Of a DNA stretch of 64,000 bases, positions 1-64,000 are shown piece by piece. The notes below the pieces were generated by a model. It worked only from the letters and a program-made list of their open reading frames with translations. It ran no database searches and was not told the DNA's origin. The position numbers and the translations under genes were made by a program. The stretch is from NCBI GenBank assembly GCA_030704665.1, contig JAUYID010000009.1, positions 394,460 through 458,459 of the forward strand, given 5' to 3'. Within the stretch, counting starts at the first letter, position 1, and every line of letters starts with the position of its first letter. Source of the stretch: a bacterium. Lineage in GTDB: Bacteria > Patescibacteriota > Microgenomatia > Woykebacterales > RBG-16-39-9b.

Positions 1-55
1 GCTCGATTTCATCCCAAGCCAGCTTCAAAGCCAAAGGTTGTTGTGTTAAAATGAG

Positions 56-1406: not shown

Positions 1407-1512
1407 AATGGGTTATTCGTTTTCTCATAGTTTTGTTTATCTCGATAGTTTTTTGGTTCCTGTATTTTGTTATTAACTTTAAAGTTTGCTTTGGGTTTGG
1501 GTGTTAAAATTT

Positions 1513-3734: not shown

Positions 3735-3778
3735 GAGAAAAAAAGCCGCGGAGGCCTAAAGGGCAGGTTTGCTTTAGG
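3735..3778 (-). terminator. putative intrinsic terminator of the LPXTG-protein gene
   Basis: On the minus strand an 8-bp stem (CCTAAAG...CTTTAGG) spans the stop codon and is followed after about 10 nt by TTTTTTTCTC. Confidence 0.4.
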
Positions 3779-6769: not shown

Positions 6770-6906
6770 TTGTTTTTCTATTCTTTCCTGGGCGGTTAAA
6801 AACCCACTTTTCCTTTTGTAAAAAATGTACTTTTAACTACCCGACCTCTTCCCGGCTCCCTGTCTCTCCGGAAAACCCGGAGAGACAAAGGGATCGGTAA
6901 CAGACA

Positions 6907-8070
6907 TTAGTTGCTGCTGTTTACATTTACGTCTACATCGACGTTGTTGTTGCTGCCATCAGCCTCGTCTCCGTTAACGGAGTTTTCGTTGGCACTGCTG
7001 GAAACTTCAACATCAACATCAGCATCACCAGTGTGCTGGTCGTCAGCTGTGTTTTTGTTGGTTTCGTTGTCACCAGTGTTTGCACTGATTTTTCCGCTGT
7101 TCTTCACGTTGGCCTCGTTGTCTTGATCGATGTCAAGATCGTTGTCAGCAGAAGCTTCAGCTTTGTTTTTTGAATCCGCACCAGTTTTTTCATTGGCGGC
7201 TTCGAGTTCAACATCACAGCAAGCGTCGACGTTTGCTGAGTTGGAGTTGGCATTGTTTTCAATTCCAACCTCAACTTTAGCGTCACCAGTGTCGACAGAG
7301 CCTTCACCAGTGTTTTTGTTTGCTTCGTTGTCTCCGGTGTTGGCTTCAACGTCTACGTCATTGCAGAGGTTGGCGTCGTTATCTTGGTCGATATCGACAT
7401 CGGTTTCTACAGATGCGTCGGCGTAGTTTTCAGAATCAGCTCCAGTGGTGTCATTGGAAGCAGAAACACTTCCACCGTCACCCCCGCTGATGCTAACTGA
7501 ATTCTCGTTTACCATATTGGCGATGCTGACAACTACTTCAGCGTCTCCAGTGGTGACGTTACCTTCACCAGTGTTTTTGTTTGCTTCGTTGTCTCCGGTG
7601 TTTGAGCTGACACTTACGCTGTTGAAAACGTTGGCCTCGTTGTCTTGATCGACATCGATGTCGTTGTCAACTGAAGCTTCAGCAATGTTCTTGGAGTCGG
7701 CACCAGTTTTGGTGTTAGAAGCTGAGACATCACCAGTACAAGCTCCACAGTTGTCAAGACTGACAGTGTTGGAGTTGGCGGTGTTGCTCAAAGAAACTGT
7801 GACGGAAGCGTCACCAGTGGTGACGGAACCTTCGCCAGTGTTCTTGTTTGCTGTGTTTCCACCAGTGTTTGAAGAGACGCTAATGTTGTTTACAATATTA
7901 GCTTCATTCTTCTGATCGATATCTACATCGTTATTAGTGCTGACTTCCGCTTCATTGTAGGAACCGTAACCCGTAGTGTCGTTGCTAGCAGTTCCCGCCA
8001 AAGCTGGAGTCAAAGAGAAAGCAAGGGATGCTACCGCAGATGCTGCAGCAGCAATTACTTTTTTGTTCAT
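6907..8070 (-). CDS. secreted acidic repeat protein (387 aa), same repeat family
   Basis: Signal peptide (ASLAFSLTPALAGTAS) and four copies of SSNTGDNEANKNTGEGxVTTGDAxVxV. Asp/Asn rich, consistent with calcium binding. SD AAAGGGGGTG lies upstream of the ATG. Confidence 0.7.
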   Translation of the reverse strand: MNKKVIAAAASAVASLAFSLTPALAGTASNDTTGYGSYNEAEVSTNNDVDIDQKNEANIVNNISVSSNTGGNTANKNTGEGSVTTGDASVTVSLSNTANSNTVSLDNCGACTGDVSASNTKTGADSKNIAEASVDNDIDVDQDNEANVFNSVSVSSNTGDNEANKNTGEGNVTTGDAEVVVSIANMVNENSVSISGGDGGSVSASNDTTGADSENYADASVETDVDIDQDNDANLCNDVDVEANTGDNEANKNTGEGSVDTGDAKVEVGIENNANSNSANVDACCDVELEAANEKTGADSKNKAEASADNDLDIDQDNEANVKNSGKISANTGDNETNKNTADDQHTGDADVDVEVSSSANENSVNGDEADGSNNNVDVDVNVNSSN

Positions 8071-8152
8071 TTGTGTTTCACCCCCTTTCGTGTTTAGATT
8101 TACTAAATTCCTAATAAATTTAGTCTCAACAATTTAGAGTGTTAAACAATTT

Positions 8153-8224
8153 CACCAAACAAAAACCGGAGGCAGAAAACCCTGAGAACAAAATAAATTT
8201 GTTCAGAGTTACCTGCCTCCGGTT
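8153..8224 (-). terminator. intrinsic terminator or attenuator hairpin (minus strand)
   Basis: An 11-bp stem (ACCGGAGGCAG/CTGCCTCCGGT) encloses a nested hairpin. On the minus strand it is followed by TTTTTGTTTGG. It lies between the consensus promoter at 8358-8387 and the start of the repeat-protein gene at 8070. Confidence 0.6.
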
Positions 8225-8357
8225 GCGGTCGGCAAAGAAATAAGTTTTGGGCAATTACTTGTTAAAAAGGAGCAGAAGATGTCGATCTCTCGTTAGTTTG
8301 TATTATGCCGCACTGTGTTCGGCGTAATCAGCGAAGAAGTTAGTCACTTCTTCTTTG

Positions 8358-8387
8358 ATTATAAGTTGCTTTCAAAAAACTTGTCAA
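8358..8387 (-). promoter_or_regulatory. sigma70-type promoter TTGACA-18-TATAAT (minus strand)
   Basis: Exact consensus -35 and -10 hexamers on the minus strand. The promoter points toward the 8153-8224 hairpin and the repeat-protein gene at 8070. Confidence 0.5.
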
Positions 8388-8414
8388 GACCCAACGGGTC
8401 TACCATAAAGCTAG

Positions 8415-8627
8415 CTATTTTAATTTGTTAATAGGCCTTGAGTAAACGTAATTAGGTCTTTTTGCTTCGGGTTTATTTGTTTTCCTGATGATTCTTTCGG
8501 TGATTTGGACGACTCGGCCTGATTCTATGTAGATTTCAATTGAACCAAATTCTTTGTTGGCCACGGCCATCTTTATCTCTTCGAGAAGACGGTCGCTTAT
8601 TGGACTAGTGGAAAACTCATCAATCAT
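8415..8627 (-). CDS. DUF2292 (YezD-like) small protein
   Basis: 70 aa. GSIEIYIESGRVVQITERI matches the conserved core of the YezD/DUF2292 family. Confidence 0.55.
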   Translation of the reverse strand: MIDEFSTSPISDRLLEEIKMAVANKEFGSIEIYIESGRVVQITERIIRKTNKPEAKRPNYVYSRPINKLK

Positions 8628-8751
8628 AATTTTAGTTTACAAACTAAATTTGTTGACTAGCTTTTTTTAATCTCCTTCGGACTCAGGTCCTTCGGTCCTT
8701 TTCTATTTCTATATAGACGGGCCGAAGGCGCTTTCGTTACGGGCTAGCTTA

Positions 8752-9312
8752 CTATCTAAAGTTTATTTGTACGGCTTGTTTTTCCCCACGTATTTCACCT
8801 AGTTCGATGGTGAAGTTTTTTTCATTACGGTCGATGACGAAAGCAACGTTGCTTCTTTTGACTGAAATTGGTCTGACTTCGACGTTGCCTTGAGAAACAC
8901 TCGGAGCGATGCGTTTGCCATCAGAGCGGACGAGACGAAACAAGTCTAGTGGTGTGGTGTAAAGTGGAACTTGATATTTGTTTTCTACTTCAAGGTAAAT
9001 AACGATAAAGGTCTTGCCGTTTCGGGCGGTGGCGTTTTGGCCCTGAACCAAAACTTTGTCGGTGATTTGGGCGTTGGTAAGTTTAATCGGAAGAGTTCCG
9101 TCGGTTGGTCGCCCATCTTTTGTGCGACCAATACTGTCAAAATTTTTCCCAATGTTGACTGAGGTTGAACTTGAAGAAGATCCGGTGTCACTTCCGATTG
9201 CGCCAAGAGCGGTCTTGCCAATGAAAAAGACGATGATGAGCCCGACAATTGCCAAAACTATTTTGCCGCGTTTTCTTGATAGAGTTTTTACTTTTTCGGT
9301 AAGTCTTGTCAT
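8752..9312 (-). CDS. membrane-anchored DUF4352-like protein
   Basis: Basic N-terminus, one TM helix, an S-rich linker and a C-terminal beta-rich domain of the kind seen in DUF4352 lipoprotein-like proteins. Confidence 0.45.
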   Translation of the reverse strand: MTRLTEKVKTLSRKRGKIVLAIVGLIIVFFIGKTALGAIGSDTGSSSSSTSVNIGKNFDSIGRTKDGRPTDGTLPIKLTNAQITDKVLVQGQNATARNGKTFIVIYLEVENKYQVPLYTTPLDLFRLVRSDGKRIAPSVSQGNVEVRPISVKRSNVAFVIDRNEKNFTIELGEIRGEKQAVQINFR

Positions 9313-9320
9313 TTTAAAGA

Positions 9321-9346
9321 TGAAAAACCAGCTTCTGACAAGCTGG
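9321..9346 (-). terminator. putative terminator downstream of the Clp ATPase gene
   Basis: Stem CCAGCTT/AAGCTGG followed on the minus strand by TTTTTCATCTTT. It lies directly 5' of the DUF4352 start codon. Confidence 0.4.
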
Positions 9347-9480
9347 GCAATTTCGTTCGGTTATTATGCGGAACGAAAAAACATTTGTCAAGTAGACAAA
9401 GGGTTCTCTATCAGCCGTAATCCTTTAACTATAAGTTTTTGGCTTATTTAAACAGCGGAAGAAGCTATAAGATAATGTAT

Positions 9481-11925
9481 TTAAGAATTTGGAACAGTGG
9501 GAAGGAGGCTTAAATTGTCGTTTTGGAAATCAAGAATGACACTGCTCCCCCGCTGCAAGGACCCTTCCAAAAGTTTTTTGGAAAGAAGAGCCTCAACTTC
9601 ATCCTGCATGAGGCGGCGCAGGCTGCGGGCCCCATAAGTTGGATCGTAGCCTTTTTTGGCCAAGAACTCGAGGGTTGCTGCTGTGACTTGGAGTTTAATA
9701 TCTTGTTGCTCCATTCTTTTGACTAGGTCAGCAAAAAGGAGTTTGACCACTTCAACTACTTCAGTTTGGGACAAAGGTTTGAAGACGATGACATCATCGA
9801 AGCGGTTGAGGAATTCAGGTTTAAAGGTGCCTTCTCTTTGGAGTTTGTCGAGCAAGGAAGTTTTGATTTGTGTGAGTGGTAGATTTGCGTTGACTGATTC
9901 GCGGATGTACTCGGCCCCCGCGTTGGAAGTAGCGATAATGATAGTATTGGTAAAGGAAATGATACGCCCTGAAGAATCAGCTGCCTTACCTTCGTCAAAA
10001 ATAGCCAAAAAAGTCTCTTGAATTTTTTGGTGCGCTTTTTCCATTTCATCAAGCAGTATCAAGGAAAAAGGTTTTGTCCTTACCGCCTCCATGAGCTGTC
10101 CCCCGCTCTCAAAACCGCTTTGTCCAGGCGGTGGACCGATGAGACGGTTGATCGAAGTCTCATTTTCAAATTCACTCATATCGAGACGAATAATTGCTTT
10201 TTCATCCCCAAAATAAGATTGCGCAAGAGCTTTGGCAGTTTCGGTTTTTCCGACTCCAGTTGGTCCGAGAAAAAGGAAAACCCCGATCGGTCGTGGGCTG
10301 GTTCGGACCATGGTGCGAGCCCGCCGAACCGCTTCAGCAACAGAAGTGATAGCCTCGTTTTGGGAGATAACCCTCTGGTGCAGCGTTTTTTCAAGATTGA
10401 GCAGTTTCTCCGCTTCTTCACCAGAAGCTAAAGCGATTGGAACCTTGGTTTTTGCAGTTAGAACAGATTCAACATCACCTGGCTCAACCACAGCTTTCTT
10501 TTTGAGGTTGACGGCGGCCGCAATTTCGTCGAGTAAGTCAATCCCTTTGCCGGGGAAAACCCGATCAGTCAAATAACGGTTGGCAAGCTCAACACAATAG
10601 GTCAAAGCTTTGTAAGTGACAGTGACCCGGTGTTTCTTTTCAATCTGAGCAAGCCTTCCTTCCAAGATACGGATCGTTTCTTCCTGGCTTGTTTCGGGAA
10701 TGTCGGTTACCTCAAAATGCTCTGAAAAGGCAGGTTTTTGTTCGATATATTGGTGGTAAGCGTTTCTTGTCGAGGTAGCAATGATTTGTAAAGCAGAGTT
10801 GGCGATTTGGTTAAAAATAAGTCCAGAAAGATCATAAGTCGCTCCAGCAATGCTTTCTATTTGGGGAATGTAAAGGACGACGTTGCCGGCATGTGAAAGC
10901 TCGTCAAAGATACTTTTGATTCTGTCTTCCAGCTCCCCACCTTGTGCTTGCGCAACTAAAGAAGTCAGGTCGAGCTGCAAAAAGCGCTTGTATTTGAGCT
11001 CTTCCGGCAGGGTTCCAACCAAAGACTTGAGGGCGAGACCGTAGATCAGAGCTTCTTTACCAATGCCGGGTTCCCCAAGCAAAATTAGATTGCGTTTACT
11101 GCCTCGACCGAGAACCTCTTCGATTTGGGTGATTTCTTTGTCGCGCCCGATCAAGGTCCCGTCAAAACTACCTTTGACCAGACCTTTGCTCAAATCGAGA
11201 GTGTACTGCTCAGTCCAGTAGGTCCAGCCTCCACTCCAGAATTCTCCCATACCCTGGCCCATACGTTTGGGAGATTTTTCCCAGAAAGGGACCGACTCCT
11301 CCCCGCGTATCCAAAAAGCAATATTGAGTAGATCGCTGCTTTTGAGCTTTTTCTGAAAAAGAGCCCGCGCCAGGAGTGGACTTTTTTCAAAGAGAGTTAA
11401 AAGTAAATCGATTTCATCGACAAAGGAGCGTTTTTCTTTTTTTGTATACTCAGCAGCGGTGGTCATCAGTTGGTTGAGGTCAGTTTTTTCATCGGCCAAA
11501 GACTTTTTCAAAGAAGCAGTTTCTTCGCGGCTAAAATCAGCCCTCGTCAAAACTTCAGCAACAAGTTTTGCTGAATCTAGAGAAGAAAAAAGTGAACCGA
11601 CCGCTTTCCAATCTGAGGTTTTAAGCAAGATTTTTGCTAGAGAAAGGCTGATAAATTTTTGGTAGTCCCCTACTTGCCCAACTCTGGCAGCTGGTTTCCA
11701 AAAAGAAAGTTTGTAGCGGTAAAAAGCTTCAAACATGACGAAGAGAATGAAAAGGGAAAAGGCTAAGTAAGGCGGTTTTTCGGTTTGTTGGGTCAGTGGC
11801 AGGATCAGCAACAAGAAAAGCACTACTCCCAGTCCACCACGGGCGACTTTGGCTGGTAGGGAGCCGTAGAAAAGGTCGAAACTGGCAATTTGAAAGATAG
11901 AAGCCTTAACGGAAGATAGATGCAT
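9481..11925 (-). CDS. Clp/Hsp100-family AAA+ ATPase (ClpC/ClpA-like) with N-terminal transmembrane region
   Basis: Two AAA modules (GEPGIGKEALI and GPTGVGKTETAKALA Walker A boxes, and the sensor-2 GARSLRR). The usual Clp-N domain is replaced by about 2 TM helices in the first 80 aa. Confidence 0.85.
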   Translation of the reverse strand: MHLSSVKASIFQIASFDLFYGSLPAKVARGGLGVVLFLLLILPLTQQTEKPPYLAFSLFILFVMFEAFYRYKLSFWKPAARVGQVGDYQKFISLSLAKILLKTSDWKAVGSLFSSLDSAKLVAEVLTRADFSREETASLKKSLADEKTDLNQLMTTAAEYTKKEKRSFVDEIDLLLTLFEKSPLLARALFQKKLKSSDLLNIAFWIRGEESVPFWEKSPKRMGQGMGEFWSGGWTYWTEQYTLDLSKGLVKGSFDGTLIGRDKEITQIEEVLGRGSKRNLILLGEPGIGKEALIYGLALKSLVGTLPEELKYKRFLQLDLTSLVAQAQGGELEDRIKSIFDELSHAGNVVLYIPQIESIAGATYDLSGLIFNQIANSALQIIATSTRNAYHQYIEQKPAFSEHFEVTDIPETSQEETIRILEGRLAQIEKKHRVTVTYKALTYCVELANRYLTDRVFPGKGIDLLDEIAAAVNLKKKAVVEPGDVESVLTAKTKVPIALASGEEAEKLLNLEKTLHQRVISQNEAITSVAEAVRRARTMVRTSPRPIGVFLFLGPTGVGKTETAKALAQSYFGDEKAIIRLDMSEFENETSINRLIGPPPGQSGFESGGQLMEAVRTKPFSLILLDEMEKAHQKIQETFLAIFDEGKAADSSGRIISFTNTIIIATSNAGAEYIRESVNANLPLTQIKTSLLDKLQREGTFKPEFLNRFDDVIVFKPLSQTEVVEVVKLLFADLVKRMEQQDIKLQVTAATLEFLAKKGYDPTYGARSLRRLMQDEVEALLSKKLLEGSLQRGSSVILDFQNDNLSLLPTVPNS

Positions 11926-12268
11926 AAATTCCCCAGAAAAAGATAAACGGTAAAACGACCCAAACTAAAAAGAGGCTGGCCTCGATTGCGATCAACCCAA
12001 CCAAGAAGAAAGCATCAAAGACCAAAAGTAAGCTTTTCAAACCTACTCCGAAAAAGGTCGCAAAGCGCGTCAAACCTTCTCGGTACTCATTTTTCCACGG
12101 TTTGAAGAAAGTTTTGAAGATCGAATCAATGGAAAGCAGCTGGAGAAAGGCGCGAAAGATGTAAATGAGGATTTGGATGAGTTCAACAGTTGCTTCGAGA
12201 AACCACCAAACGACGAAATCAATCGGGAGACGAAGCAAATAACTAGTAAAAGAAACGGCAGGCCGCAT
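11906..12268 (-). CDS. small membrane protein, unknown function
   Basis: 120-aa hydrophobic ORF that overlaps the Clp gene start by 20 nt. Confidence 0.35.
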   Translation of the reverse strand: MRPAVSFTSYLLRLPIDFVVWWFLEATVELIQILIYIFRAFLQLLSIDSIFKTFFKPWKNEYREGLTRFATFFGVGLKSLLLVFDAFFLVGLIAIEASLFLVWVVLPFIFFWGIYASIFR

Positions 12269-12323
12269 GAATTTAATTTTAACCTAATTACCCTACCGCA
12301 GCAACAAGAGCAAAATAAAAAGC

Positions 12324-12382
12324 TGTCATTCTGAAGCGAAGCTGAAGAATCTTGAGATCCTTCACTAGTCGTTCAGGATGAC
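12324..12382. repeat. ORF-less palindromic element (MITE-like derivative of the GIY-YIG element)
   Basis: TGTCATTCTGAAGCGAAGCTGAAGAATCTT followed by GAGATCCTTCACTAGTCGTTCAGGATGACG. The two arms are the left and right TIRs of the GIY-YIG elements fused without an ORF. It sits at the boundary of the GC-rich block. Confidence 0.7.
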
Positions 12383-12500
12383 GTTAGGGTGTTGAATAAG
12401 ACTATTTAAGTAACTTTCGGGTGAGTGTTCGGGAGTTCTTTCGGGTCCTTCGGGTGCGAGCTAGGTTGGTTAAAACCGTTTGTGCTCGCACCCTTGACCT

Positions 12501-13259
12501 CTACTCGATTCTCTGGAATTCGCATGGAATCCAGCCAAGTTCTACGTACTGACCTTGGACCTCACACCAGTAGTGACCATCGTTGCCAAGGACGGGTTCG
12601 GACATCAGGGTAACCCTGTCTCTTCCGTAAGCAAGGTCCGTGCGTCCATACTCATCGATGTGGAGAGGTTCACCGTTCGGTGACGCCCGAAGGATGAAGT
12701 TGTAGCCGACGAGCAACTCCTCTCCAATCTCGAAATCGGGTTTGCGCCGCGAAGGTAGTTCGGGGAAAGGACCGTACAGCTGATCGCTGTCCGAAATGTA
12801 GAAATCCAACCCTTCGACATAGACGCCGCCGCGCAGAACTATCACCGGCCAAAACCAAAAGCCGGCCGGGTACTTCTCGCTCTTACCGAGAATTTCTGGC
12901 TCTCCACGAACCTGGACGAAGTCGCCCTGATGAACGTGAAGCTGTGTCAGACAACGTCCAGGAAGATCAGGAAGGACTTCACAAGTCCAGTAAGTGGCCG
13001 GTACACGCAAAACATCCCCAACCTCGTGTTGTTGAGTCAGAGTCGGTGTGTCAACCTGATTGGCCGAGACATCTGCTTGGTTCTGACCTGTGCTCGCAGT
13101 GTTTTCCGCTTCCTCGTCACTCCCAAAGAAGAAGACGAAGACGGCGACGAAGGTAAGCGAACCGATTACAAGTAACAACCCAAAGAACCAGTCTCGCTTC
13201 CACCACGGTGTTGAGGCGGAAAGCGGAGTTTCCGGTACGCCTTGTGATACTTTACCCAT
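12501..13259 (-). CDS. membrane-anchored hypothetical protein
   Basis: Start moved to the internal Met (MGKVSQG) so that it no longer overlaps the peptidase gene on the other strand. One TM helix followed by an acidic linker and beta-rich domains. Confidence 0.45.
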   Translation of the reverse strand: MGKVSQGVPETPLSASTPWWKRDWFFGLLLVIGSLTFVAVFVFFFGSDEEAENTASTGQNQADVSANQVDTPTLTQQHEVGDVLRVPATYWTCEVLPDLPGRCLTQLHVHQGDFVQVRGEPEILGKSEKYPAGFWFWPVIVLRGGVYVEGLDFYISDSDQLYGPFPELPSRRKPDFEIGEELLVGYNFILRASPNGEPLHIDEYGRTDLAYGRDRVTLMSEPVLGNDGHYWCEVQGQYVELGWIPCEFQRIE

Positions 13260-13326
13260 GAGATCCCTCTCTTTTGAACTCTCGCTCTTGCTTGAGTGCA
13301 TTATACAACTGGTAGGCCAGTTTATA

Positions 13327-13680
13327 ATGAAGATGATGACAAACCCCGAATTTGAAGCCCTTGTCGTAGAGGCGCTGGAAGAAATACCGGCTTTCTTTAA
13401 AGAAAAACTGGACAACGTTGATTTAGTTATCGAAGATTGGCCAGAGAGAAACCCGCCGGGTCAGTTTTTGCTCGGACTTTATCAAGGAGTCCCCCAAACT
13501 GCTTGGGGACGTGGGAGTGTCACTGTTCTTCCTGACAAAATCACTATTTATCAAAAACCGATTGAAATAGTTTCAGCTGGGGATCCGGAAAGAATTAAAA
13601 CTCAGGCGATTGAAACAGTCCAGCACGAGATCGCTCATCACTTCGGGATTTCTGACGAAAGATTAAGAGAACTGAAGTAG
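13327..13680 (+). CDS. zincin-like metallopeptidase (DUF1025/SprT-like minimal HExxH protein)
   Basis: HEIAHHFG is an HExxH zinc-binding motif in a roughly 117-aa protein. Start set at the internal Met (MKMMTNPEF); the upstream extension of the track ORF lies antisense to the neighbouring gene. Confidence 0.5.
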   Translation: MKMMTNPEFEALVVEALEEIPAFFKEKLDNVDLVIEDWPERNPPGQFLLGLYQGVPQTAWGRGSVTVLPDKITIYQKPIEIVSAGDPERIKTQAIETVQHEIAHHFGISDERLRELK

Positions 13681-13683
13681 TAG

Positions 13684-14328
13684 TTATCGTCTAATTTTAA
13701 TCAAGCAAGGGTCTTCCAAATCGCTGTAAGTAGTGGCATACATCCCAAAGATGAAGTCAGAAATTAAATATTTGTGTTCTCCTCCCCTTTTATCCCAAAG
13801 GGGGTCGTTGACGTAGATATGTGTTTCGTCTATTCCAGTGACTACGTTAAAATGAAAATTGAATCTTGGTTTTTCTGAAGTGAGAAACTGGGAAGTTAGA
13901 AGTGCAATTGGCGGTTGAGCCTTTTCCAATTCTGCTCGTATATCTTCGACTGTGGGGACTCGAACGGTGACTTTCCCACCCTCTTCGAGAAATTTGAGGG
14001 TAAATTTTAGCGAGGCTTTCTCTTGTCTTTTCTTCTTCTTTAAAAGCATCTCTTCTAATCTTTTGCGTATTTGATCTTTACTCAGATCAACATCTTTTAG
14101 AGTGTAAAGAGCGGGGTTGAAAGTAACCATTTCGACCTTAAAACCAAGCTTAATTAAATGAGAGCCAAGTTGAGCGCAATAAGTACCGTTTTTGAAAACT
14201 CGAATGGACCTTTTTAAATCTGAAAAAGTGGTTGGCAATTTATAGTATCTAGTCAGCATATTTAGTACTGCTAGACCACAATCTTCAGAACCCTTTTCTT
14301 GTCGAACCAGAGGGACATTAAATTTCAT
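13684..14328 (-). CDS. peptidase C39-like (papain-fold cysteine peptidase) domain protein
   Basis: QEKGSEDCGLAVLNML supplies the catalytic Q and C, and HFNVVTGIDETHIYVNDP the catalytic His, as in C39 bacteriocin-processing-type domains. Confidence 0.6.
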   Translation of the reverse strand: MKFNVPLVRQEKGSEDCGLAVLNMLTRYYKLPTTFSDLKRSIRVFKNGTYCAQLGSHLIKLGFKVEMVTFNPALYTLKDVDLSKDQIRKRLEEMLLKKKKRQEKASLKFTLKFLEEGGKVTVRVPTVEDIRAELEKAQPPIALLTSQFLTSEKPRFNFHFNVVTGIDETHIYVNDPLWDKRGGEHKYLISDFIFGMYATTYSDLEDPCLIKIRR

Positions 14329-14517
14329 AAAATGATTGTAACACTAAAGGGAAATAGGTTCAGAAGTGGAAAAATTTTTGACTGATTATAAAGACAATAA
14401 CACAAAAAATTACCGGCAAACAAGCGGTTGATTTTTCCAATTCCCCACCGGGATAATCAAGCTAGAAAGTCGCACGTTACCAACCCGTAACGTTCTGTAC
14501 CCATTTAAGGAGGGAGT

Positions 14518-15897
14518 ATGGGTAACTCTGGCATAGCCGCGGCGAAAAGGAAAGCCTCGTCATTAAACTTGGCCGAGCTTCTTGACGATGGTAACTACGA
14601 ATACAATTTCCAACCCAGTAGCCTGGAGTTGTCGAACATCAATGTCCTGGCCCAGCCGAGGAAGACTTTCGAGAACATTGCGCTTCTGGCTGAGGACCTC
14701 GCTGCTCACCAGCTACTTCACCCGGTGATTGTAGCTGAATTCGACCGAGGCTATTGCGAACGCTACTTGTCTGCAATCAACGATATTTGGCACTCTGACT
14801 ACGACATAGACCAATTGACTAGTACCCAGACAGCAGAGGGGGAACGTTACTACGTCTTGGTTGCTGGCGAACGGCGTTATCGAGCCTTCAGCTACCTTTG
14901 GTTTGAGGGCTGTATGGTTTGTCGTGAAAAAGGGCGAATCACACCAGGCAAGTGCTTTAGGAAGCACTTTCGGACTGGAAAAATTGAAGTCAGGCTCGCC
15001 CGAAACATTCCTCCGCTACAGGCACTCTATCGGCAACTAGCCGAGAACACGCACGAGAGAGTAGCACCGCATGAGGAGGCGATCGCCATAGGTGAGACCT
15101 ATGCCCTACTCAAGCAGAGGATGCCGGAGATAAGTCCTTCTGCTTTGGCCCGTGAGATTGGTATGGGTGTAGGTAAGGTCAGCGCTGCAGTTGCCTACTT
15201 TGCTCTGCCGGAATCGATCAAGATTGCGACAGCAGCCGGAACGATTTCCTACGGGATCGCCTTGCAGCTGGCAAGACTCAACGAAGACGGTGAATCAGAA
15301 GACTCTCTACACCGTTGGGCGACTCATGCCATCGTGAATGGCGTTCATCGACGGGTTGTTGACTTCAGAGATCTAGTCGATGCCTACCTGCTGAACAAAC
15401 ACTCTGGGCAAGTAGGTCTGTTCGACGAGGAGACTGAAGAGCAGACCAAACGACAACGAAATTACCGTCAAGTGGTGGCGCGAAATTTCGTTGCTAGTTA
15501 TCACTTGGTCATCCAATACTTCACCACTGTTGAGGATCGGTTTGACGATGGGACATTGGGGGCTGCCGACTCCCCTTTCTCGATCAGCAGTCCTATCAAG
15601 GCGATTCGTAAAGCGCTCAACCACTTCGAGAGGGTGCTTTTGCATCTCAAGCGTTATCTTCCTGCGAAGGAGCGCGTCCGGGCAACGGTAGTTGTGGCAG
15701 AATTAACCGAAGCCTTGGTTGTTCAGGAGCAGGGGCGTTTCGCAGAGGAGAAGATCGACGAAATTCTACGCTCTCTGTCCTCCGAGAGTCGTATCCAAGC
15801 CGAACTGCACATTGAACAGCTGGTTCAGCTACTCTCGGGACAAAACGAACGAAGAGAAGCACAGGAAAGGGAGCTCGCAATCACAGCGGTTGGATGA
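14518..15897 (+). CDS. ParB/Srx-domain protein (ParB-like, 459 aa)
   Basis: ParB box VLVAGERRYRA and a central HTH (ALAREIGMGVGKVSAAV). No parA is adjacent. SD GGAGGGAG lies upstream of the ATG. Confidence 0.7.
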   Translation: MGNSGIAAAKRKASSLNLAELLDDGNYEYNFQPSSLELSNINVLAQPRKTFENIALLAEDLAAHQLLHPVIVAEFDRGYCERYLSAINDIWHSDYDIDQLTSTQTAEGERYYVLVAGERRYRAFSYLWFEGCMVCREKGRITPGKCFRKHFRTGKIEVRLARNIPPLQALYRQLAENTHERVAPHEEAIAIGETYALLKQRMPEISPSALAREIGMGVGKVSAAVAYFALPESIKIATAAGTISYGIALQLARLNEDGESEDSLHRWATHAIVNGVHRRVVDFRDLVDAYLLNKHSGQVGLFDEETEEQTKRQRNYRQVVARNFVASYHLVIQYFTTVEDRFDDGTLGAADSPFSISSPIKAIRKALNHFERVLLHLKRYLPAKERVRATVVVAELTEALVVQEQGRFAEEKIDEILRSLSSESRIQAELHIEQLVQLLSGQNERREAQERELAITAVG

Positions 15898-16146: not shown

Positions 16147-16356
16147 TCATTTGACAAAACCGATGATACAGCCTTCTTCCCCGTAAACCGGCACATAACC
16201 CTCGGTTCGTTTTGGAGAATTGGCCCCAAGTTCACGGTTGCAATCACGGTGCATCACCCCGTCGTAAAGCACTCGCCCACCGACATAGACTGGTGAGAGG
16301 GTCAGAACCAAGATGGTTAACCAGAGTCTTAGTAGGTCTTTGCCGGAGTTGAACAA
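16147..16356 (-). CDS. small secreted Cys-containing protein
   Basis: 69 aa with a TTG start preceded by AAGGAGGG. N-terminal hydrophobic signal-like segment. Confidence 0.3.
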   Translation of the reverse strand: MFNSGKDLLRLWLTILVLTLSPVYVGGRVLYDGVMHRDCNRELGANSPKRTEGYVPVYGEEGCIIGFVK

Positions 16357-16368
16357 ATTTCTCCCTCC

Positions 16369-16518
16369 TTACTCTAGACTGGGTGTTGCTGTTTGCTGGA
16401 CAGTTGGACTTGTCTCAGGGATAAGGTCGTCTGTTGGCGAAGTCACTAGCAAGACCAACATCAAGGTCAGTCCCACCAACAGGGTCACGCTCAGACCGAG
16501 GCGGTATTCCTTCTTCAA
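16369..16518 (-). CDS. small single-TM peptide (49 aa), not in the ORF track
   Basis: TTG start 4 nt after AAGGAGG. LKKEYRLGLSVTLLVGLTLMLVLLV. Lies tandem to the 16147 gene. Confidence 0.25.
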   Translation of the reverse strand: MKKEYRLGLSVTLLVGLTLMLVLLVTSPTDDLIPETSPTVQQTATPSLE

Positions 16519-16570: not shown

Positions 16571-17431
16571 TTAGGCACTGAAGATTGAAAGGAGAACGAT
16601 ACCAAAAAGAGTGATCACAATACCAAAGATCTCTTTTTTTCGCAGAGGATCACGAAAGACAAAATAAGCTAAAACTGCGAAGAGAGCGCTGTAGGCTCCA
16701 GCAATCGGAGCAACAACCGCTACCAGTCCCCTTTCAATACCGAGGTTATAACTAAAAGAACCAATGCCAAGAATCAAAGAATTCAAAATTAAAACTGGCA
16801 AAATTCCCTGAAAAGTGGGTTTAACCAGCTTGATTCTTCTTACTCTCATAAAAAAGTAAACAAAGACATACATGAGCTGGGAGAGAACAATCGGCCAGTA
16901 CCAGCCGAGCTCTTGGACCGGAATTTTCAAAAAAGCCCAATAGACTCCCCAACACACCATGGAGACAAGAGCAAAAAGAACCGAGCGAGAGGAAAGAAGT
17001 TTTTGAGCTTTTAAATCCTGGAAATCCAGAGATGAAATCACGATCCCGGCAAAGATAATGATAATCGAGAGACTTTGCGGCTGGTTAATCTTCTCACCGA
17101 GGAAAATTAAAGAGAGGATGACTGTCAGAGCTGCAAAGGAGCCAACCAGGGTTCCAGCCAAAGAAGCGCTCCCTTCTTTCATCGCTTCATAAAAAGTAGT
17201 TGAAGCGGCGGCGGCGACGAGGCCGAGAGCCAGATTCAGAAGCAAAAGCGCAAAAGTTAAGTTTTTTAAATCAGAAAGAAAAAAAGGAGCAAAAACGATA
17301 AAGAGAAGAAACTGGAAGACAATAAACCAGATCGTAGTTGAGTAGGGTCCGATTTTGCGGGTGGCGACCGCCCCAAAGATGTCCCCCACTCCCCAGCCAA
17401 AGAAAGCAAGAAAGGCAAAAAGAATGGCCAT
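16571..17431 (-). CDS. EamA/DMT-superfamily transporter
   Basis: 286 aa with 10 predicted TM helices and two EamA-like halves (FGWGVGDIFGAV...). Confidence 0.8.
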   Translation of the reverse strand: MAILFAFLAFFGWGVGDIFGAVATRKIGPYSTTIWFIVFQFLLFIVFAPFFLSDLKNLTFALLLLNLALGLVAAAASTTFYEAMKEGSASLAGTLVGSFAALTVILSLIFLGEKINQPQSLSIIIIFAGIVISSLDFQDLKAQKLLSSRSVLFALVSMVCWGVYWAFLKIPVQELGWYWPIVLSQLMYVFVYFFMRVRRIKLVKPTFQGILPVLILNSLILGIGSFSYNLGIERGLVAVVAPIAGAYSALFAVLAYFVFRDPLRKKEIFGIVITLFGIVLLSIFSA

Positions 17432-61465: not shown

Positions 61466-62497
61466 ATGTTCCCAATCGGCGAACCAGGCGAAAACCCAGT
61501 AACCCCTGAAGAAATTGTTGGTATCCCCTCCCCTGCTCCAAAAACTGAAGATGAGGAAAAAAGAAAGTCCCCGGATCGAGTCGTTCCTCCTGAAGCCCAA
61601 AAAGCTTTTGAAGACTATATCAAGACAGAGCTAACTAGAAAAGATCACCCCTTTTACTTTTCAGACGAAGAAGAAAAAGACACAGCTAATTTGTTCTTTG
61701 CTCAAAGGGGTAGCAACGGAGAGGTGGCAAGGCGTTATTTCCGTTATCTTAAAGATGATGAGTCTGATGAACCTATTAAATTTTTTACCCAAAGCACTAT
61801 GCATATTAACAAAGGTTATGCGGCTATTTACAAAGCAGATGTAGCACCAAACTCTCAAAGAGGTTATTTCCAAGGCTATATGGATAGTGACGCTACTGTG
61901 TTGAGAGCAACTCCCAAAGGACTGGATTTTGTTCGCGTCTTTGATGATCAGACCATGATACTCAACCACAATCCCGAGAATCAGCTAAATTACCTAGCTT
62001 TCCACAAGGTTGGCAATATCAAAAGTTTGAGTGAAATAATAGAGCAAGCTGATTCAACAGATGCTCAGCCAGTGGCGGCAGAAGCCCCTTCTTTTGCATT
62101 GGTTTTTTCTCCCGATACTCTGAACACAATGGTTTATGACGAAGCGGGAAATCGGAAAATTACTGAAGTGAAAATGGTTGAGGAATTCGCCGTCGATGGC
62201 AGGCGTGTTCAAGTAGCCAATGCTGGTGAAACTGTTAAACTCGTTTTTTACCTACCGGATGATCCGAACAAAGTTGACTATGAGATTACTCTACCAAGAA
62301 AACAAGAGACTGAGGAGTACTGGACTGGTGATATGAACCAGACGAAGCCAATCAGGAGATACACTTGGGAAAAGGATCTTATTCCCGAGCCTTTGCGGAC
62401 GAACGTGCATGCCCCTCAAGAACTCGATGATGCTTGGAAGCGGGCCGATCTAGCCCGAACTATTGGAATAAAAATAGAAAAGAATTTAGCTGCCTAG
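61466..62497 (+). CDS. hypothetical protein (343 aa)
   Basis: No motif recognised. Confidence 0.4.
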   Translation: MFPIGEPGENPVTPEEIVGIPSPAPKTEDEEKRKSPDRVVPPEAQKAFEDYIKTELTRKDHPFYFSDEEEKDTANLFFAQRGSNGEVARRYFRYLKDDESDEPIKFFTQSTMHINKGYAAIYKADVAPNSQRGYFQGYMDSDATVLRATPKGLDFVRVFDDQTMILNHNPENQLNYLAFHKVGNIKSLSEIIEQADSTDAQPVAAEAPSFALVFSPDTLNTMVYDEAGNRKITEVKMVEEFAVDGRRVQVANAGETVKLVFYLPDDPNKVDYEITLPRKQETEEYWTGDMNQTKPIRRYTWEKDLIPEPLRTNVHAPQELDDAWKRADLARTIGIKIEKNLAA

Positions 62498-62565
62498 AAA
62501 CCGAAAGGCGTTCTGAGGGAATTGCTTCCGTACTCAGAACGCCTGTTGGTCTCCTCCTACTTCCA

Positions 62566-62670
62566 CTACGGATACTCGTTGTAATTGCTGTTTGGGTCGA
62601 GGCCTTCGATCATGAGCCACAGACCGACCAAAGCGAGCACAAAGAGCGAGCCGATGAGTAGTTTCTTCAA
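62566..62670 (-). CDS. small single-TM peptide (34 aa), not in the ORF track
   Basis: TTG start after GGAGG. LKKLLIGSLFVLALVGLWLMIEGLDP. Confidence 0.3.
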   Translation of the reverse strand: MKKLLIGSLFVLALVGLWLMIEGLDPNSNYNEYP

Positions 62671-62706
62671 GACAGCCTCCAAGCCAATGTCTGGGCATCT
62701 GTTCCC

Positions 62707-62787
62707 TTAGTTTGGATCTTCACAGATGAACCAGATCACGAAGATGGCAAGAGCTCCAATCACAGCTCCTAGCAGGAACTTCTTCAT
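62707..62787 (-). CDS. small single-TM peptide (26 aa), not in the ORF track
   Basis: MKKFLLGAVIGALAIFVIWFICEDPN; SD GAGGAGAG. Confidence 0.3.
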   Translation of the reverse strand: MKKFLLGAVIGALAIFVIWFICEDPN

Positions 62788-62789
62788 TT

Positions 62790-62903
62790 TCAGCTCTCCT
62801 CATCCCGGTCGATTGGGTAGCGCCGGCGGTCGTCCTCCAGAGCAATGATGACGATGGTCACGCCAATTGCTGCACCGATCACTAGTGCTAGTGCTTTGAT
62901 CAC
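62790..62903 (-). CDS. small single-TM peptide (37 aa)
   Basis: GTG start after AAGGAGA. VIKALALVIGAAIGVTIVIIALEDD. Trimmed from the 83-aa track ORF. Confidence 0.3.
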   Translation of the reverse strand: MIKALALVIGAAIGVTIVIIALEDDRRRYPIDRDEES

Positions 62904-63075
62904 GCTGCCAGTCTCCTTTCTTCCCTCTCTGTGTGGGTGTTCACTATCAAGCGGAGTCTGCTCCCACCCTTCGGTCCTGGTCGGGTCGGACGCTCTTGTT
63001 TTGGGTAGAGGTAGTGGAAGAGCCAAGTTCCCCTGAGCCAACCACTGATAGTCGTTATTACGAGGAGGAGATTGG

Positions 63076-63270
63076 TCATTCCACTTCTCCTAGTCTCCAC
63101 ATTTCGCGGTGGAGAGCCGAACGGTTCCCTAATTGCGTCGCAATGAGCTTGCCACGGTGGAGAAGCCTTTCGTGCTCATCTCTAGGCGACTCGGGTTTCG
63201 GTTTCTTTCTCTCGAAGGGCCAGAAAAGGCCGAGGACTAGGGCGATACAAATGACTTTCCAGATTTTCAA
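63076..63270 (-). CDS. small single-TM protein (64 aa)
   Basis: TTG start after AAGGAGG. LKIWKVICIALVLGLFWPF. Confidence 0.3.
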   Translation of the reverse strand: MKIWKVICIALVLGLFWPFERKKPKPESPRDEHERLLHRGKLIATQLGNRSALHREMWRLGEVE

Positions 63271-63283
63271 CTCGACCTCCTTG

Positions 63284-63472
63284 TCAGAGATGCTGTTCTG
63301 GCTGCCAGACAGTGTTAGCAGCACCTGGTTCGGCGGCCGTTTCCGTTGGAGATTTCCTTTTCGGATTGGGACTTGGTCCCGAAGGCCTGAAGGGCGGGTC
63401 TCCCCAGAATTTGCCGATGACGTACCAGACACTGCCAATGATGAGCAGGGCTTGGAGCAGGGTTTTCATCAC
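63284..63472 (-). CDS. small single-TM protein (62 aa)
   Basis: MMKTLLQALLIIGSVWYVIGKFWGDPP; SD GAAAGGAG. Confidence 0.35.
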   Translation of the reverse strand: MMKTLLQALLIIGSVWYVIGKFWGDPPFRPSGPSPNPKRKSPTETAAEPGAANTVWQPEQHL

Positions 63473-63485
63473 CCTCGGACTCCTT

Positions 63486-63890
63486 TCAGTCGATGCGGTT
63501 GCCGATGTGCCGTACTTGTTGGTCAGGCTTTCCGCTGTAGAGAGCCAGGTAGAGGATCTTCCATTCGTCTTCGGGACGGAAGTCAGTTCGTGCAGACCTC
63601 TTAATTTTTCTCATCCGTCCTTGGTGTGGTCGGTTTTGACCAGAAGATTCGTCGAGAAACTCGAGAAGCTTCCAGACGAAAATGCCGATGAAGACAGCCA
63701 CTGCCAAGAGTGCAGCAGCCGGGTTGAGTATTTCCGAGCCGCTGACAATGACAAGAAGCGAAAGGCCAAGAACCAAGATTGCGGTGGCCAGGTCCCCGAT
63801 CAAGTGGGCCTCAAGGATCCTTTTGCTTGGGTTTTGGTCCTCGTTCTTTACTAGAGCAAAGATGAGGAGGTAGAACCCCAGACCTAGCAT
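63486..63890 (-). CDS. polytopic membrane protein
   Basis: 134 aa with 3-4 TM helices. Confidence 0.35.
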   Translation of the reverse strand: MLGLGFYLLIFALVKNEDQNPSKRILEAHLIGDLATAILVLGLSLLVIVSGSEILNPAAALLAVAVFIGIFVWKLLEFLDESSGQNRPHQGRMRKIKRSARTDFRPEDEWKILYLALYSGKPDQQVRHIGNRID

Positions 63891-64000
63891 CGGTGCGAAC
63901 CAACCTAGAAAGCCAGTTGCTTTTTCGGGGTCCTTGAGCTGCTCTAGGCAGATAATTGAGCTGATTCCAACTCCGAGCGCAAGTAAGCCAAGGCTGAAGG

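What the first reader, a model, noticed from the sequence alone, without database searches (positions are those of the whole stretch)
62566..63472. Array of five tandem, independently translated small single-TM peptides on the minus strand
Five adjacent minus-strand ORFs of 26-64 aa each have their own Shine-Dalgarno sequence and use ATG, GTG or TTG starts. They share an N-terminal K/L-rich motif followed by one TM helix and an acidic tail, for example MKKFLLGAVIGALAIFVIWFICEDPN and LKKLLIGSLFVLALVGLWLMIEGLDP. Only fragments appear in the six-frame track. The segment is GC-rich relative to the genome. Such arrays are typical of small membrane toxins, bacteriocin-like peptides or regulatory mini-proteins.
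Basis: seen in the sequence. Interest (0 to 1): 0.55.

Follow-up and report, generated by a model that had tools for sequence, protein, structure and literature searches.

The report
Operon of six small membrane proteins
A tightly packed run of six tiny genes, each with its own ribosome-binding site and mostly unannotated, probably encodes single-helix membrane proteins made together with a transporter-like protein in a variable island of an uncultivated bacterium. It is a real but orphan small-protein operon with unknown function.

Summary
Window 62566-63472 (minus strand) carries six small ORFs, not five: 61, 64, 59, 37, 26 and 34 aa. Each has an AGGAG/GGAGG box 5-10 nt before an ATG, GTG or TTG. 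They are 94% dense, two junctions are ATGA/GTGA overlaps, and a strong hairpin follows. Five ORFs met SD plus N-terminal-helix criteria; 2000 shuffles never gave more than one. P5 and P6 are clear paralogs with a purifying-selection pattern (codon-position differences 10/3/16). P3 is the weak member.

The array follows a divergent 6-TM CDF-like gene after 16 nt. A seventh 26-aa helix ORF lies before that gene. The unit sits in a roughly 4.3-kb GC-rich, SD-rich island that is replaced in two related genomes. One relative carries recognisable P1/P2/P6-like sequence.

No homolog appeared in any protein, phage, plasmid, genome or metagenome search. NCBI annotates only P1 and an 83-aa long form of P4.

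Best reading: co-translated bitopic mini-proteins that pack in the membrane (GxxxG enriched), probably alongside co-encoded proteins. Nothing specific supports toxin, bacteriocin or pheromone roles. I rate it a new variant of a known kind, of moderate interest.

The parts
63284..63469 (-). P1, 61 aa (MKTLLQALLIIGSVWYVIGKFWGDPP...). ATG at 63469, alternative GTG at 63472. N-terminal helix followed by a Pro-rich tail.
   Evidence: SD AAGGAG lies 10 nt upstream and begins right after the stop of the CDF-like gene. Its frame scores best of six for codon usage. It is the only array ORF annotated with this start at NCBI: MDP2671345.1, Q8P13_02670. No homolog other than itself.
63076..63270 (-). P2, 64 aa, TTG start. 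N-terminal helix, a KKPKP linker and a long basic C-terminal helix.
   Evidence: SD AAGGAGG lies 5 nt upstream. Best frame for codon usage. AlphaFold2 gives helices 4-20 and 28-63 with pLDDT 78. P1-P2 similarity has z 4.7. The tail matches L005 7020-6913 with z 6.4 in a frameshift-tolerant alignment. Not in the protein collection.
62900..63079 (-). P3, 59 aa, ATG start inside an ATGA overlap with the P2 stop. This is the weakest member.
   Evidence: SD AGGAG lies 7 nt upstream. Its hydrophobicity is only 1.15 (19-residue window) to 1.31 (17-residue window), and codon usage does not single out its frame. It competes with the NCBI-annotated 83-aa ORF (62790-63041), which has no SD.
62790..62903 (-). 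P4, 37 aa, GTG start inside a GTGA overlap with the P3 stop. Helix with a GxxxG motif and a charged tail (EDDRRRYPIDRDEES).
   Evidence: SD AAAGGAG lies 9 nt upstream, KD 2.84. Best frame for codon usage. GxxxG at residue 10. NCBI annotates a longer 83-aa form, MDP2671344.1.
62707..62787 (-). P5, 26 aa: MKKFLLGAVIGALAIFVIWFICEDPN.
   Evidence: SD GAGGAG lies 8 nt upstream, KD 2.76. Paralog of P6 with z 9.1. Substitution pattern by codon position is 10/3/16. Not annotated.
62566..62670 (-). P6, 34 aa, TTG start: (M)KKLLIGSLFVLALVGLWLMIEGLDPNSNYNEYP.
   Evidence: SD GGAGG lies 5 nt upstream, KD 2.34. Paralog of P5. Residues 15-33 match L005 7269-7213 with z 5.4. Not annotated.
62497..62553 (-). 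Terminator-like hairpin between P6 and the convergent 343-aa gene.
   Evidence: Arms of 21 nt, 86% complementary (I1). Folding energy -36.1 kcal/mol, z -4.3, followed by UUUCGGUUUCU. The sequence is conserved in relative L005.
63486..64000 (-). 3' part (171 codons) of the upstream CDF-like 6-TM membrane protein. The full gene is L001 2624-3355/3388 (243/254 aa) and runs off the window.
   Evidence: TIGR01297 CDF E 1.3e-6 and ZitB PRK03557 E 1.5e-6. Pfam Cation_efflux E 1e-4, 22.6 bits against a 26.6-bit cutoff. Six helices in a low-confidence AlphaFold2 model. Its stop lies 16 nt before the P1 ATG.

Best explanation
The segment is the distal part of one transcription unit. Its order is: consensus sigma-70 promoter (outside the window), a 156-aa soluble protein, a 26-aa helix ORF, a CDF-like 6-TM protein, P1 to P6, and a hairpin terminator.

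P1-P6 are real, co-transcribed and translationally coupled genes for small bitopic membrane proteins. They fall into two groups. P4-P6 have a KK N-terminus and a short acidic tail, predicted N-in/C-out. P1-P3 have a basic, Pro-rich tail, predicted to be cytoplasmic.

They diversified by local duplication (P5/P6 clearly, P1/P2 probably). They most likely pack helix-to-helix in the membrane through GxxxG motifs, with each other and/or with the co-encoded CDF-like protein. In that reading they act as accessory or regulatory subunits in the manner of KdpF, AcrZ, CydX or MgtS.

Shown: the ORFs, their translation signals, their non-random clustering, the paralogy with protein-level constraint, the operon layout, and the island context.
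Inferred: translation, membrane insertion, topology, and any interaction or function.

I put about 0.75 on the ORFs (at least five of them) being real small membrane protein genes. I put about 0.3 on the accessory-subunit role.
For: - Six of six ORFs carry a strong SD, against 1.9% of start triplets overall.
- The region is 94% coding, with ATGA and GTGA overlaps.
- Five qualifying ORFs were found, against a maximum of one in 2000 shuffles.
- Codon usage favours the proposed frame for P1, P2, P4, P5 and P6.
- P5/P6 similarity has z 9.1.
- Differences between them fall 10/3/16 across codon positions. pN is 0.28 and pS 0.79. A random-mutation simulation gives P = 5e-5. Six of 11 conserved residues use different synonymous codons.
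- GxxxG occurs in four of seven peptides, against a shuffle mean of 0.58, P = 0.0008.
- There are 16 nt and no terminator between the CDF-like stop and P1. The upstream promoter matches consensus 12/12 and the downstream hairpin is strong.
- The CDF-like assignment rests.
- Related DNA with both SD/start sites is present in relative L005: Smith-Waterman score 82, against 45 +/- 7.5 for shuffles. Protein-level z is 6.4 for P2 and 5.4 for P6.
- Small single-TM partners of transporters are an established class (PMC12648545, read).
Against: - No homolog was found in any large search. No family hit was found. Orthologous dN/dS is therefore impossible.
- P3 is weakly hydrophobic, and its frame is not favoured by codon usage.
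- In relative L005 the related ORFs are not intact as assembled, lie in a different position (upstream of the 156-aa gene), and have no CDF-like gene nearby. This weakens a specific link to the transporter.
- The CDF match is below the curated cutoffs, and the structure model was uninformative.
- There are no expression data.
Confidence: 0.55

Rival explanations
1. The peptides are membrane-damaging agents: self-toxins or a multi-peptide bacteriocin-like weapon. The CDF-like membrane protein would serve as exporter or immunity factor.
For: The peptides are small and hydrophobic, with a single helix and tandem paralogs. GxxxG motifs also occur in two-peptide bacteriocins (my own knowledge). P4 resembles the architecture of Fst-type toxins, a helix followed by a charged tail (my own knowledge). 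The array sits in a variable island that looks foreign.
Against: There is no double-glycine leader. P4-P6 have net charge 0 to -3 rather than being cationic. No ABC/C39 exporter or known immunity gene is nearby. No opposite-strand promoter for an antisense RNA was found. The ORFs overlap stop to start, leaving no room for separate type-I loci. Strong, exposed SDs are atypical for type-I toxins. There are no PADLOC, PHROG or Pfam hits.
Confidence: 0.15
2. P4-P6 are exported signalling pro-peptides (PapR/Phr/SHP-like). A signal-like N-terminus would be removed and a short polar C-terminal peptide released.
For: They are 26-37 aa, with an MKK start, a hydrophobic core and a short polar C-terminus. 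P6 residues 1-14 hit Pfam Bacillus_PapR weakly (E 0.005, 17.5 bits). The organism has a monoderm-type LPXTG protein nearby.
Against: The PapR hit is below its 27-bit cutoff and covers only the signal-like part. The hydrophobic stretch is 17-20 residues, which is the length of a membrane anchor, and there is no AxA cleavage site. No RNPP, Rgg or TPR receptor gene is adjacent. P1-P3 do not fit this model.
Confidence: 0.07
3. Most of the small ORFs are not genes. The segment would be a 3' UTR or decaying foreign DNA in which GC-rich composition and chance give open frames. Only the two annotated products would be made: P1 and the 83-aa form of P4.
For: There are no homologs anywhere. NCBI and the Logan gene caller called only one or two genes here. 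Several frames on both strands are open, including 223-aa and 180-aa plus-strand ORFs. The P3 region has no clear coding frame. The related sequence in L005 is broken.
Against: Shuffles never give more than one such ORF, against five observed. All six have a strong SD at the correct spacing. The P5/P6 substitution pattern (10/3/16, P = 5e-5) indicates selection on the protein. The 83-aa form has no SD, while a strong SD sits exactly before the internal GTG. The plus-strand ORFs score worse for codon usage and have no family hit or annotation. L005 shows a frameshift in each of the four core genes over about 170 aa that align along their length (PGA_cap, p187, p217, MscS), so its breaks are probably assembly errors.
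Confidence: 0.12

Closest known systems
Small single-TM accessory or regulatory subunits of transport complexes: KdpF (29 aa), AcrZ (49 aa), CydX (37 aa), MgtS (31 aa), MgtR (30 aa). Reviewed in PMC12648545.
   Same: They have the same size range and a single hydrophobic helix. Some, such as KdpF and CydX, are encoded in the same operon as a polytopic membrane protein. They are usually missed by annotation.
   Different: There is no sequence relation. Here six or seven such genes form a coupled array around one transporter-like gene, instead of one. The partner is a divergent CDF-like protein without the usual C-terminal domain. No interaction has been shown. A relative has related ORFs without the CDF-like gene.
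Type I toxin-antitoxin toxins: Fst/Ldr, Hok, TisB, Ibs (my own knowledge).
   Same: They are 20-60 aa hydrophobic single-helix peptides. Some, such as ldr and ibs, occur as tandem paralogs. The Fst architecture (helix followed by a charged tail) resembles P4.
   Different: Type I loci are separate units, each with its own promoter, a structured 5' UTR and an antisense RNA. Here the ORFs are polycistronic, overlap stop to start and have exposed strong SDs. No antisense promoter was found and no family hit.
Multi-peptide leaderless or two-peptide bacteriocin operons, such as aureocin A70 aurABCD and class IIb (my own knowledge).
   Same: They also have several tandem small peptide genes in one operon, and class IIb peptides use GxxxG helix-packing motifs.
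   Different: Those peptides are cationic, either leaderless-amphipathic or carrying GG leaders, and are accompanied by ABC exporters and immunity genes. P4-P6 are neutral to acidic, no such genes are nearby, and there is no homology.
Cation diffusion facilitator (CDF) transporters: TIGR01297, PF01545, ZitB/YiiP. This applies to the upstream gene.
   Same: There are six predicted TM helices. Profile matches run in register across the whole membrane domain. DxxxD and HxxxD motifs are present in predicted TM2 and TM5 (read from the sequence).
   Different: Scores are far below the family cutoffs (27.9 bits against 82; 22.6 against 26.6). There is no ZT_dimer-type C-terminal domain, only a 55-aa tail. 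No close homolog turned up in a 5.8-billion-protein search that scored only the top 8000 word-sharing candidates.

Membership tests
Small accessory subunits of membrane transport complexes (a functional kind, not a homology family) | Protein of 65 aa or less with one TM helix | tested here: met
   KD 19-residue windows are 1.6-2.8 for P1, P2, P4, P5 and P6; P3 reaches only 1.15. AlphaFold2 of P2 gives helix 4-20.
Small accessory subunits of membrane transport complexes | Encoded in the same operon as the polytopic partner | tested here: met
   A 16-nt gap with no terminator separates the CDF-like stop from P1. An SD lies in that gap. There is a single downstream hairpin. Co-transcription is inferred, not measured.
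Small accessory subunits of membrane transport complexes | Physical association with the partner, or an effect on it | not testable with these tools
This needs co-purification, BACTH or a phenotype.
Small accessory subunits of membrane transport complexes | Homology to KdpF, AcrZ, CydX or MgtS families | tested here: not met
   No Pfam or NCBIfam hit.
Type I toxin-antitoxin toxin | Small hydrophobic toxin ORF | tested here: met
Type I toxin-antitoxin toxin | Antisense or divergent sRNA with its own promoter at each toxin locus | tested here: not met
   No plus-strand promoter-like site lies within the array. The ORFs abut or overlap, leaving no room for one. The consensus scan is crude, so this is not absolute.
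Type I toxin-antitoxin toxin | Match to a known toxin family (Hok, Fst/Ldr, TisB, Ibs, and others) | tested here: not met
   No Pfam, NCBIfam or PADLOC hit.
Class II bacteriocins (GG-leader or leaderless) | Double-glycine leader, or a strongly cationic amphipathic leaderless peptide | tested here: not met
   No GG leader is visible in the sequences. P4-P6 have net charge 0 to -3.
Class II bacteriocins (GG-leader or leaderless) | Adjacent ABC/C39 exporter and immunity gene | tested here: not met
   The neighbours carry no such Pfam domains.
RNPP/Rgg signalling pro-peptides (PapR, Phr, SHP) | Family match above threshold | tested here: not met
   PF05968 Bacillus_PapR scores 17.5 bits against a 27-bit cutoff, on residues 1-14 only.
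RNPP/Rgg signalling pro-peptides (PapR, Phr, SHP) | Cognate TPR/Rgg receptor gene adjacent | tested here: not met
   No such domain occurs in the neighbouring genes.
Holins | Small TM protein with a charged C-terminus, next to an endolysin in a phage or lysis cassette | tested here: not met
   The architecture of P1-P3 is compatible. However, there is no convincing PHROG hit for any island protein (two sub-significant unknown-function matches, E 0.0017 and 0.063) and no lysin, and no phage match.
CDF transporter family (upstream gene) | Profile match across the 6-TM domain at family threshold | tested here: inconclusive
   TIGR01297 scores 27.9 bits (cutoff 82.35) at E 1.3e-6. PF01545 scores 22.6 bits (cutoff 26.6). 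Coverage is profile positions 4-190 of 285.
CDF transporter family (upstream gene) | C-terminal cytoplasmic (ZT_dimer) domain | tested here: not met
   No hit was found. Only about 55 residues follow TM6.
CDF transporter family (upstream gene) | Metal-site residues in TM2 and TM5 | tested here: inconclusive
   DVISD and HLIGD are present in predicted helices 2 and 5. The register against solved CDFs could not be verified: phmmer against the PDB found no CDF and Foldseek was meaningless.

The most novel reading that the evidence does not exclude
A lineage-specific, rapidly duplicating family of bitopic mini-proteins (helix, then W-x(1-5)-[ED]-x(0-2)-D-P) assembles through GxxxG contacts into a hetero-oligomeric membrane complex. 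It would do so either around a CTD-less CDF-like transporter or on its own. This would be a portable 'mini-protein cassette' exchanged within GC-rich, SD-rich islands of a small-genome uncultivated bacterium, for example to remodel or attack membranes at a cell-cell interface.
Probability: 0.1. Interest if true: 0.7.

Novelty: new variant of a known kind. Interest (0 to 1): 0.4.

Why it matters
If translated, this is one of the densest small-membrane-protein operons described: six or seven coupled single-helix genes around one transporter-like gene, five of which are missing from the public annotation (P4 is present only as a longer 83-aa form). It shows how much small-protein coding capacity standard pipelines miss in uncultivated bacteria. 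It also offers a compact test case, about 1.8 kb and expressible as one fragment, for how paralogous mini-proteins diversify and whether they assemble with a transporter. It does not yet open a long-standing question, because no function or homolog anchors it.

Tried and rejected
Homology and family searches that found nothing:
- 5.8-billion-protein searches returned only self hits for the CDF-like protein and for P1.
- A full HMMER scan of 1.84 billion representatives with P2 gave one hit. It is a TPR/CHAT repeat protein matched six times by the P2 tail. I judge it a repeat-amplified helical resemblance, not homology.
- Back-translated pattern scans found nothing:
  - the P5/P6 alignment against GTDB genomes, JGI metagenomes and IMG/VR;
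  - P3+P4 against metagenomes;
  - P2 against IMG/VR.
- tblastn of all six peptides against phages and plasmids found nothing.
- Pfam, NCBIfam, PHROGs and PADLOC gave nothing meaningful.
- Rfam gave nothing in the island or in the whole window.
- No tRNA and no flanking direct repeats mark a mobile element.

Structure:
- AlphaFold2 of the CDF-like protein without an alignment was poor (pLDDT 59), and Foldseek matches were meaningless.
- phmmer against the PDB found no CDF.
- The 156-aa and 273-aa neighbours had no PDB relatives.

Readings rejected:
- A pseudogenised multi-TM gene: each helix starts directly after an SD and start codon, and no family matches.
- The plus-strand 223-aa and 180-aa ORFs: worse codon scores, no family, not annotated.
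- An integron cassette array: there is no attC-sized spacer between ORFs.
- Pilin or Flp prepilins: there is no G/FxxxE motif.
- A weak P6-like match at window 838-912 is only a TM segment of a 98-aa two-TM protein.
- The 380-nt leader is not significantly structured (z -1.4).
Full report
**What is there**

Reading the minus strand of window 62000-64000 and listing ORFs shows six consecutive small ORFs, not five.

| ORF | Start | End | Length |
|---|---|---|---|
| P1 | 63469 (ATG; GTG at 63472 also possible) | 63284 | 61 aa |
| P2 | 63270 (TTG) | 63076 | 64 aa |
| P3 | 63079 (ATG) | 62900 | 59 aa |
| P4 | 62903 (GTG) | 62790 | 37 aa |
| P5 | 62787 (ATG) | 62707 | 26 aa |
| P6 | 62670 (TTG) | 62566 | 34 aa |

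- Each ORF is preceded by AGGAG, GGAGG or GAGGAG at 5-10 nt.
- P2/P3 share an ATGA junction and P3/P4 a GTGA junction. The other gaps are 13, 2 and 36 nt. About 94% of the 904 nt is ORF.
- Directly after the P6 stop lies a 21-nt-arm hairpin (window 62497-62553). It folds at -36 kcal/mol (z -4.3) and is followed by a U-rich tract. It sits between P6 and the convergent 343-aa gene.

**Is it more than chance?**

- A strong SD (score 5 or more) precedes only 1.9% of all ATG/GTG/TTG triplets in the 72.5 kb I could read. All six ORFs have one.
- I required an SD, a start codon, at least 25 codons and an N-terminal hydrophobic stretch. The region holds five such ORFs; P3 fails on hydrophobicity.
- In 2000 dinucleotide-preserving shuffles, 1989 gave none and 11 gave one. 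No other non-overlapping 960-bp stretch of the window has more than two.
- A codon-usage model trained on 32 long ORFs from outside the island favours the proposed frame over the five others for P1, P2, P4, P5 and P6. It does not do so for P3.

**Internal evolutionary evidence**

- P5 and P6 are clear paralogs. Their Smith-Waterman score is 49, against 17 +/- 3.5 for shuffles (z 9.1). The invariant residues are K2 K3 L5 G7 L A W E D P N.
- Over 24 aligned codons, the nucleotide differences fall 10/3/16 on codon positions 1/2/3. pN is 0.28 and pS is 0.79 (saturated).
- Placing the same number of substitutions at random gives a protein score as high as the observed one in only 5e-5 of trials.
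- Six of the 11 identical residues use different synonymous codons.
- This is the signature of selection on the peptide sequence in this frame. One caveat applies: the alignment was chosen at the protein level.
- P1/P2 are probably related (z 4.7). P4 is weakly related to P5/P6 (z 2.7-2.9).
- GxxxG motifs occur in P1, P3, P4 and P5. That is four of seven peptides, against a shuffle mean of 0.58 (P = 0.0008).

**Two architectural classes**

- P4-P6 have an M(K/I)K start, a 17-20-residue hydrophobic core and a short acidic tail. By the positive-inside rule they would be N-in/C-out.
- P1-P3 have a helix at the very N-terminus, then an aromatic-Pro junction and a long basic, Pro-rich tail. P2 has 11 K/R against 8 D/E.
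- AlphaFold2 of P2 gives helix 4-20, a linker, and helix 28-63 (pLDDT 78).

**Context**

- An exact-protein look-up recovered a longer contig, L001 (window position = L001 position + 60862).
- Sixteen nt upstream of P1 ends a 243/254-aa protein with six predicted helices.
- That protein matches CDF profiles in register across the membrane domain, but below the curated cutoffs:
  - TIGR01297: E 1.3e-6, 27.9 bits.
  - ZitB PRK03557: E 1.5e-6.
  - Pfam Cation_efflux: E 1e-4, 22.6 bits against a 26.6-bit cutoff.
- It lacks the usual C-terminal domain. DVISD and HLIGD motifs sit in predicted TM2 and TM5, but I could not verify the register.
- Between it and the upstream 156-aa gene lies a seventh SD-led helix ORF of 26 aa, MFLRPFIATLVLYIGVASVALLVHFT (L001 3475-3395).
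- Further upstream is a 12/12 consensus TTGACA-16-TATAAT promoter (L001 4378-4351), followed by about 380 nt of leader.
- The inferred unit is therefore: promoter, leader, 156-aa gene, 26-aa ORF, CDF-like gene, P1-P6, terminator.

**The island**

- GC is 0.50-0.56 from L001 ~1600 to ~6000, against 0.42-0.45 on both sides.
- Every gene in the island is an orphan.
- Across the window, strong SDs go with GC-rich genes: 11 of 28 genes with GC of at least 0.50, against 1 of 43 below that. The island therefore looks compositionally foreign.

**Comparative evidence**

- The source is an NCBI MAG labelled only 'bacterium' (locus tags Q8P13_...).
- NCBI annotates just two genes in the finding's interval. 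One is P1 (MDP2671345.1). The other is an 83-aa ORF from TTG 63041 that runs into P4 (MDP2671344.1). That ORF has no SD and overlaps P3.
- A distant relative (L002-L004; its neighbour gene is 33% identical to the 343-aa protein) keeps the synteny PGA_cap ... MscS, response regulator, 330-aa gene. After that it has an unrelated 278-aa membrane protein.
- A closer relative is L005 (ENA contig; response regulator 93% identical; DNA 67-84% identical). It is syntenic on both sides of the island, but the island itself is different.
- In L005, a homolog of the 156-aa protein (42-48% identical) abuts the same terminator. Homology to our sequence resumes at, or within about 15 nt of, the P6 stop.
- The roughly 1.8-kb block '26-aa ORF, CDF-like gene, P1-P6' is therefore an insertion or deletion between the two genomes.
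- L005 nevertheless contains related small-ORF DNA upstream of its 156-aa gene:
  - L005 7314-6909 aligns with ours 63511-63079, including both SD/start sites. The score is 82, against 45 +/- 7.5 for shuffles.
  - The P2 tail matches with z 6.4 (ALHREMWRLGEV against AMHREKWRMGEV).
  - The end of the P6 helix matches with z 5.4 (VGLWLMIEGLDPNSNYNEY against LGFWALFELLDPRKTRAGY).
- As assembled, the L005 ORFs are broken. However, each of the four core genes over about 170 aa that align along their length in L005 also carries a frameshift. Its breaks are therefore probably assembly errors, and dN/dS cannot be trusted there.

**No other relatives**

See the list under Tried and rejected. One limitation matters. 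The word-index search for the hydrophobic CDF-like protein scored only the 8000 candidates that shared the most words with it. Distant relatives may therefore have been missed.

**Interpretation**

The best-supported reading is a polycistronic, translationally coupled set of small bitopic membrane proteins that arose by local duplication.

- Enriched GxxxG motifs and co-expression with a 6-TM protein suggest helix-helix assembly in the membrane.
- The nearest functional analogy is the small accessory or regulatory subunit class: KdpF, AcrZ, CydX, MgtS/MgtR (PMC12648545).
- That role is an inference. It is weakened by L005, which has related ORFs without the CDF-like gene.

The rival readings each fail the testable defining features of the known families:

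- Type-I-like toxins or bacteriocin-like peptides: no antisense promoter, polycistronic packing, no GG leader, non-cationic peptides, no exporter or immunity gene.
- RNPP/Rgg-type pro-peptides: the PapR hit is sub-threshold and N-terminal only, and there is no receptor gene.
- Holins: no lysin and no phage signal.

Failing these tests does not exclude the activities themselves.

The non-coding reading is disfavoured by the shuffle test, the SD statistics and the P5/P6 substitution pattern. It remains possible for P3.

**Verdict**

The structural interpretation is right in outline: six ORFs (seven in the operon), in two classes, with coupled translation. The function is unknown, with accessory membrane mini-proteins the leading hypothesis. 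I classify it as a new variant of a known kind. Interest is moderate (0.4).

Noticed in passing
L001 3395-3475 (minus), equivalent to window coordinates 64257-64337, just outside the window: A seventh SD-led (AAAGGAG) 26-aa single-helix ORF, MFLRPFIATLVLYIGVASVALLVHFT, lies between the 156-aa gene and the CDF-like gene. Small helix ORFs therefore flank the transporter-like gene on both sides.
   Followed up: partly
L001 4378-3968 (minus), outside the window: A perfect TTGACA-16-TATAAT promoter is followed by a roughly 380-nt untranslated leader. The leader contains a tRNA T-arm-like hairpin (GTAAGGTTCGAATCCTTAC) and a GGGAGACGG...CCGTCTCCC hairpin. There is no Rfam or tRNA hit, and the overall fold z is only -1.4. 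It could be a leader, attenuator or tRNA-fragment remnant.
   Followed up: partly
Whole window plus L001: Genes fall into two populations. GC-rich genes (at least 0.50) often carry strong SDs (11 of 28). GC-poor genes almost never do (1 of 43). The GC-rich, SD-bearing genes next to the array (L001) are orphans without Pfam hits; elsewhere in the window some GC-rich genes do have Pfam domains. This suggests many small foreign islands in a roughly 0.94-Mb genome.
   Followed up: partly
Window 16147-16518 (minus): A second mini-array: two tandem TTG-start ORFs of 49 and 69 aa. Each has AAGGAGG and an N-terminal helix (MKKEYRLGLSVTLLVGLTLMLVLLV...). They lie directly downstream of a 286-aa multi-TM protein that looks like an EamA-type transporter (my reading of its sequence; no family search was run) at 16571-17431. 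The theme is the same: a transporter followed by small helix ORFs.
   Followed up: partly
L001 10094-11025 (minus): Another GC-rich, SD-bearing cluster of small membrane proteins (39, 107 and 113 aa) lies next to an ECF sigma factor and a DUF5667 protein.
   Followed up: no
Window 62790-63041 (minus): NCBI's Q8P13_02665 (83 aa, TTG start, no SD) is probably an over-extended form of P4. A strong SD sits before the internal GTG at 62903, and the extension overlaps P3 in another frame.
   Followed up: yes
P2 residues 9-55 against P0005 (1217-aa TPR/CHAT protein): The only library hit for P2 is a repeat protein whose ~42-residue TPR-like unit resembles the P2 tail six times over (E 3e-7). This is probably convergent helical-hairpin composition.
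   Followed up: partly
L005 (ENA ERZ25039520 contig_90608), 1-14970: This relative's contig has a frameshift in each of the four core genes over about 170 aa that align along their length (PGA_cap, Cob_adeno_trans, a 217-aa gene, MscS). This suggests an unpolished long-read assembly, so ORF integrity there cannot be trusted.
   Followed up: yes
Window 1-64000: No Rfam family reaches its gathering score anywhere in the 64 kb. That includes tRNA, riboswitches and RNase P/SRP/tmRNA.
   Followed up: no
L001 6092-6709 (plus): A 205-aa secreted protein has an LPKTG sortase motif, a TM segment and a basic tail. It has its own 12/12 consensus promoter and is conserved in L005 at 53% identity. This points to a monoderm-type envelope.
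   Followed up: no
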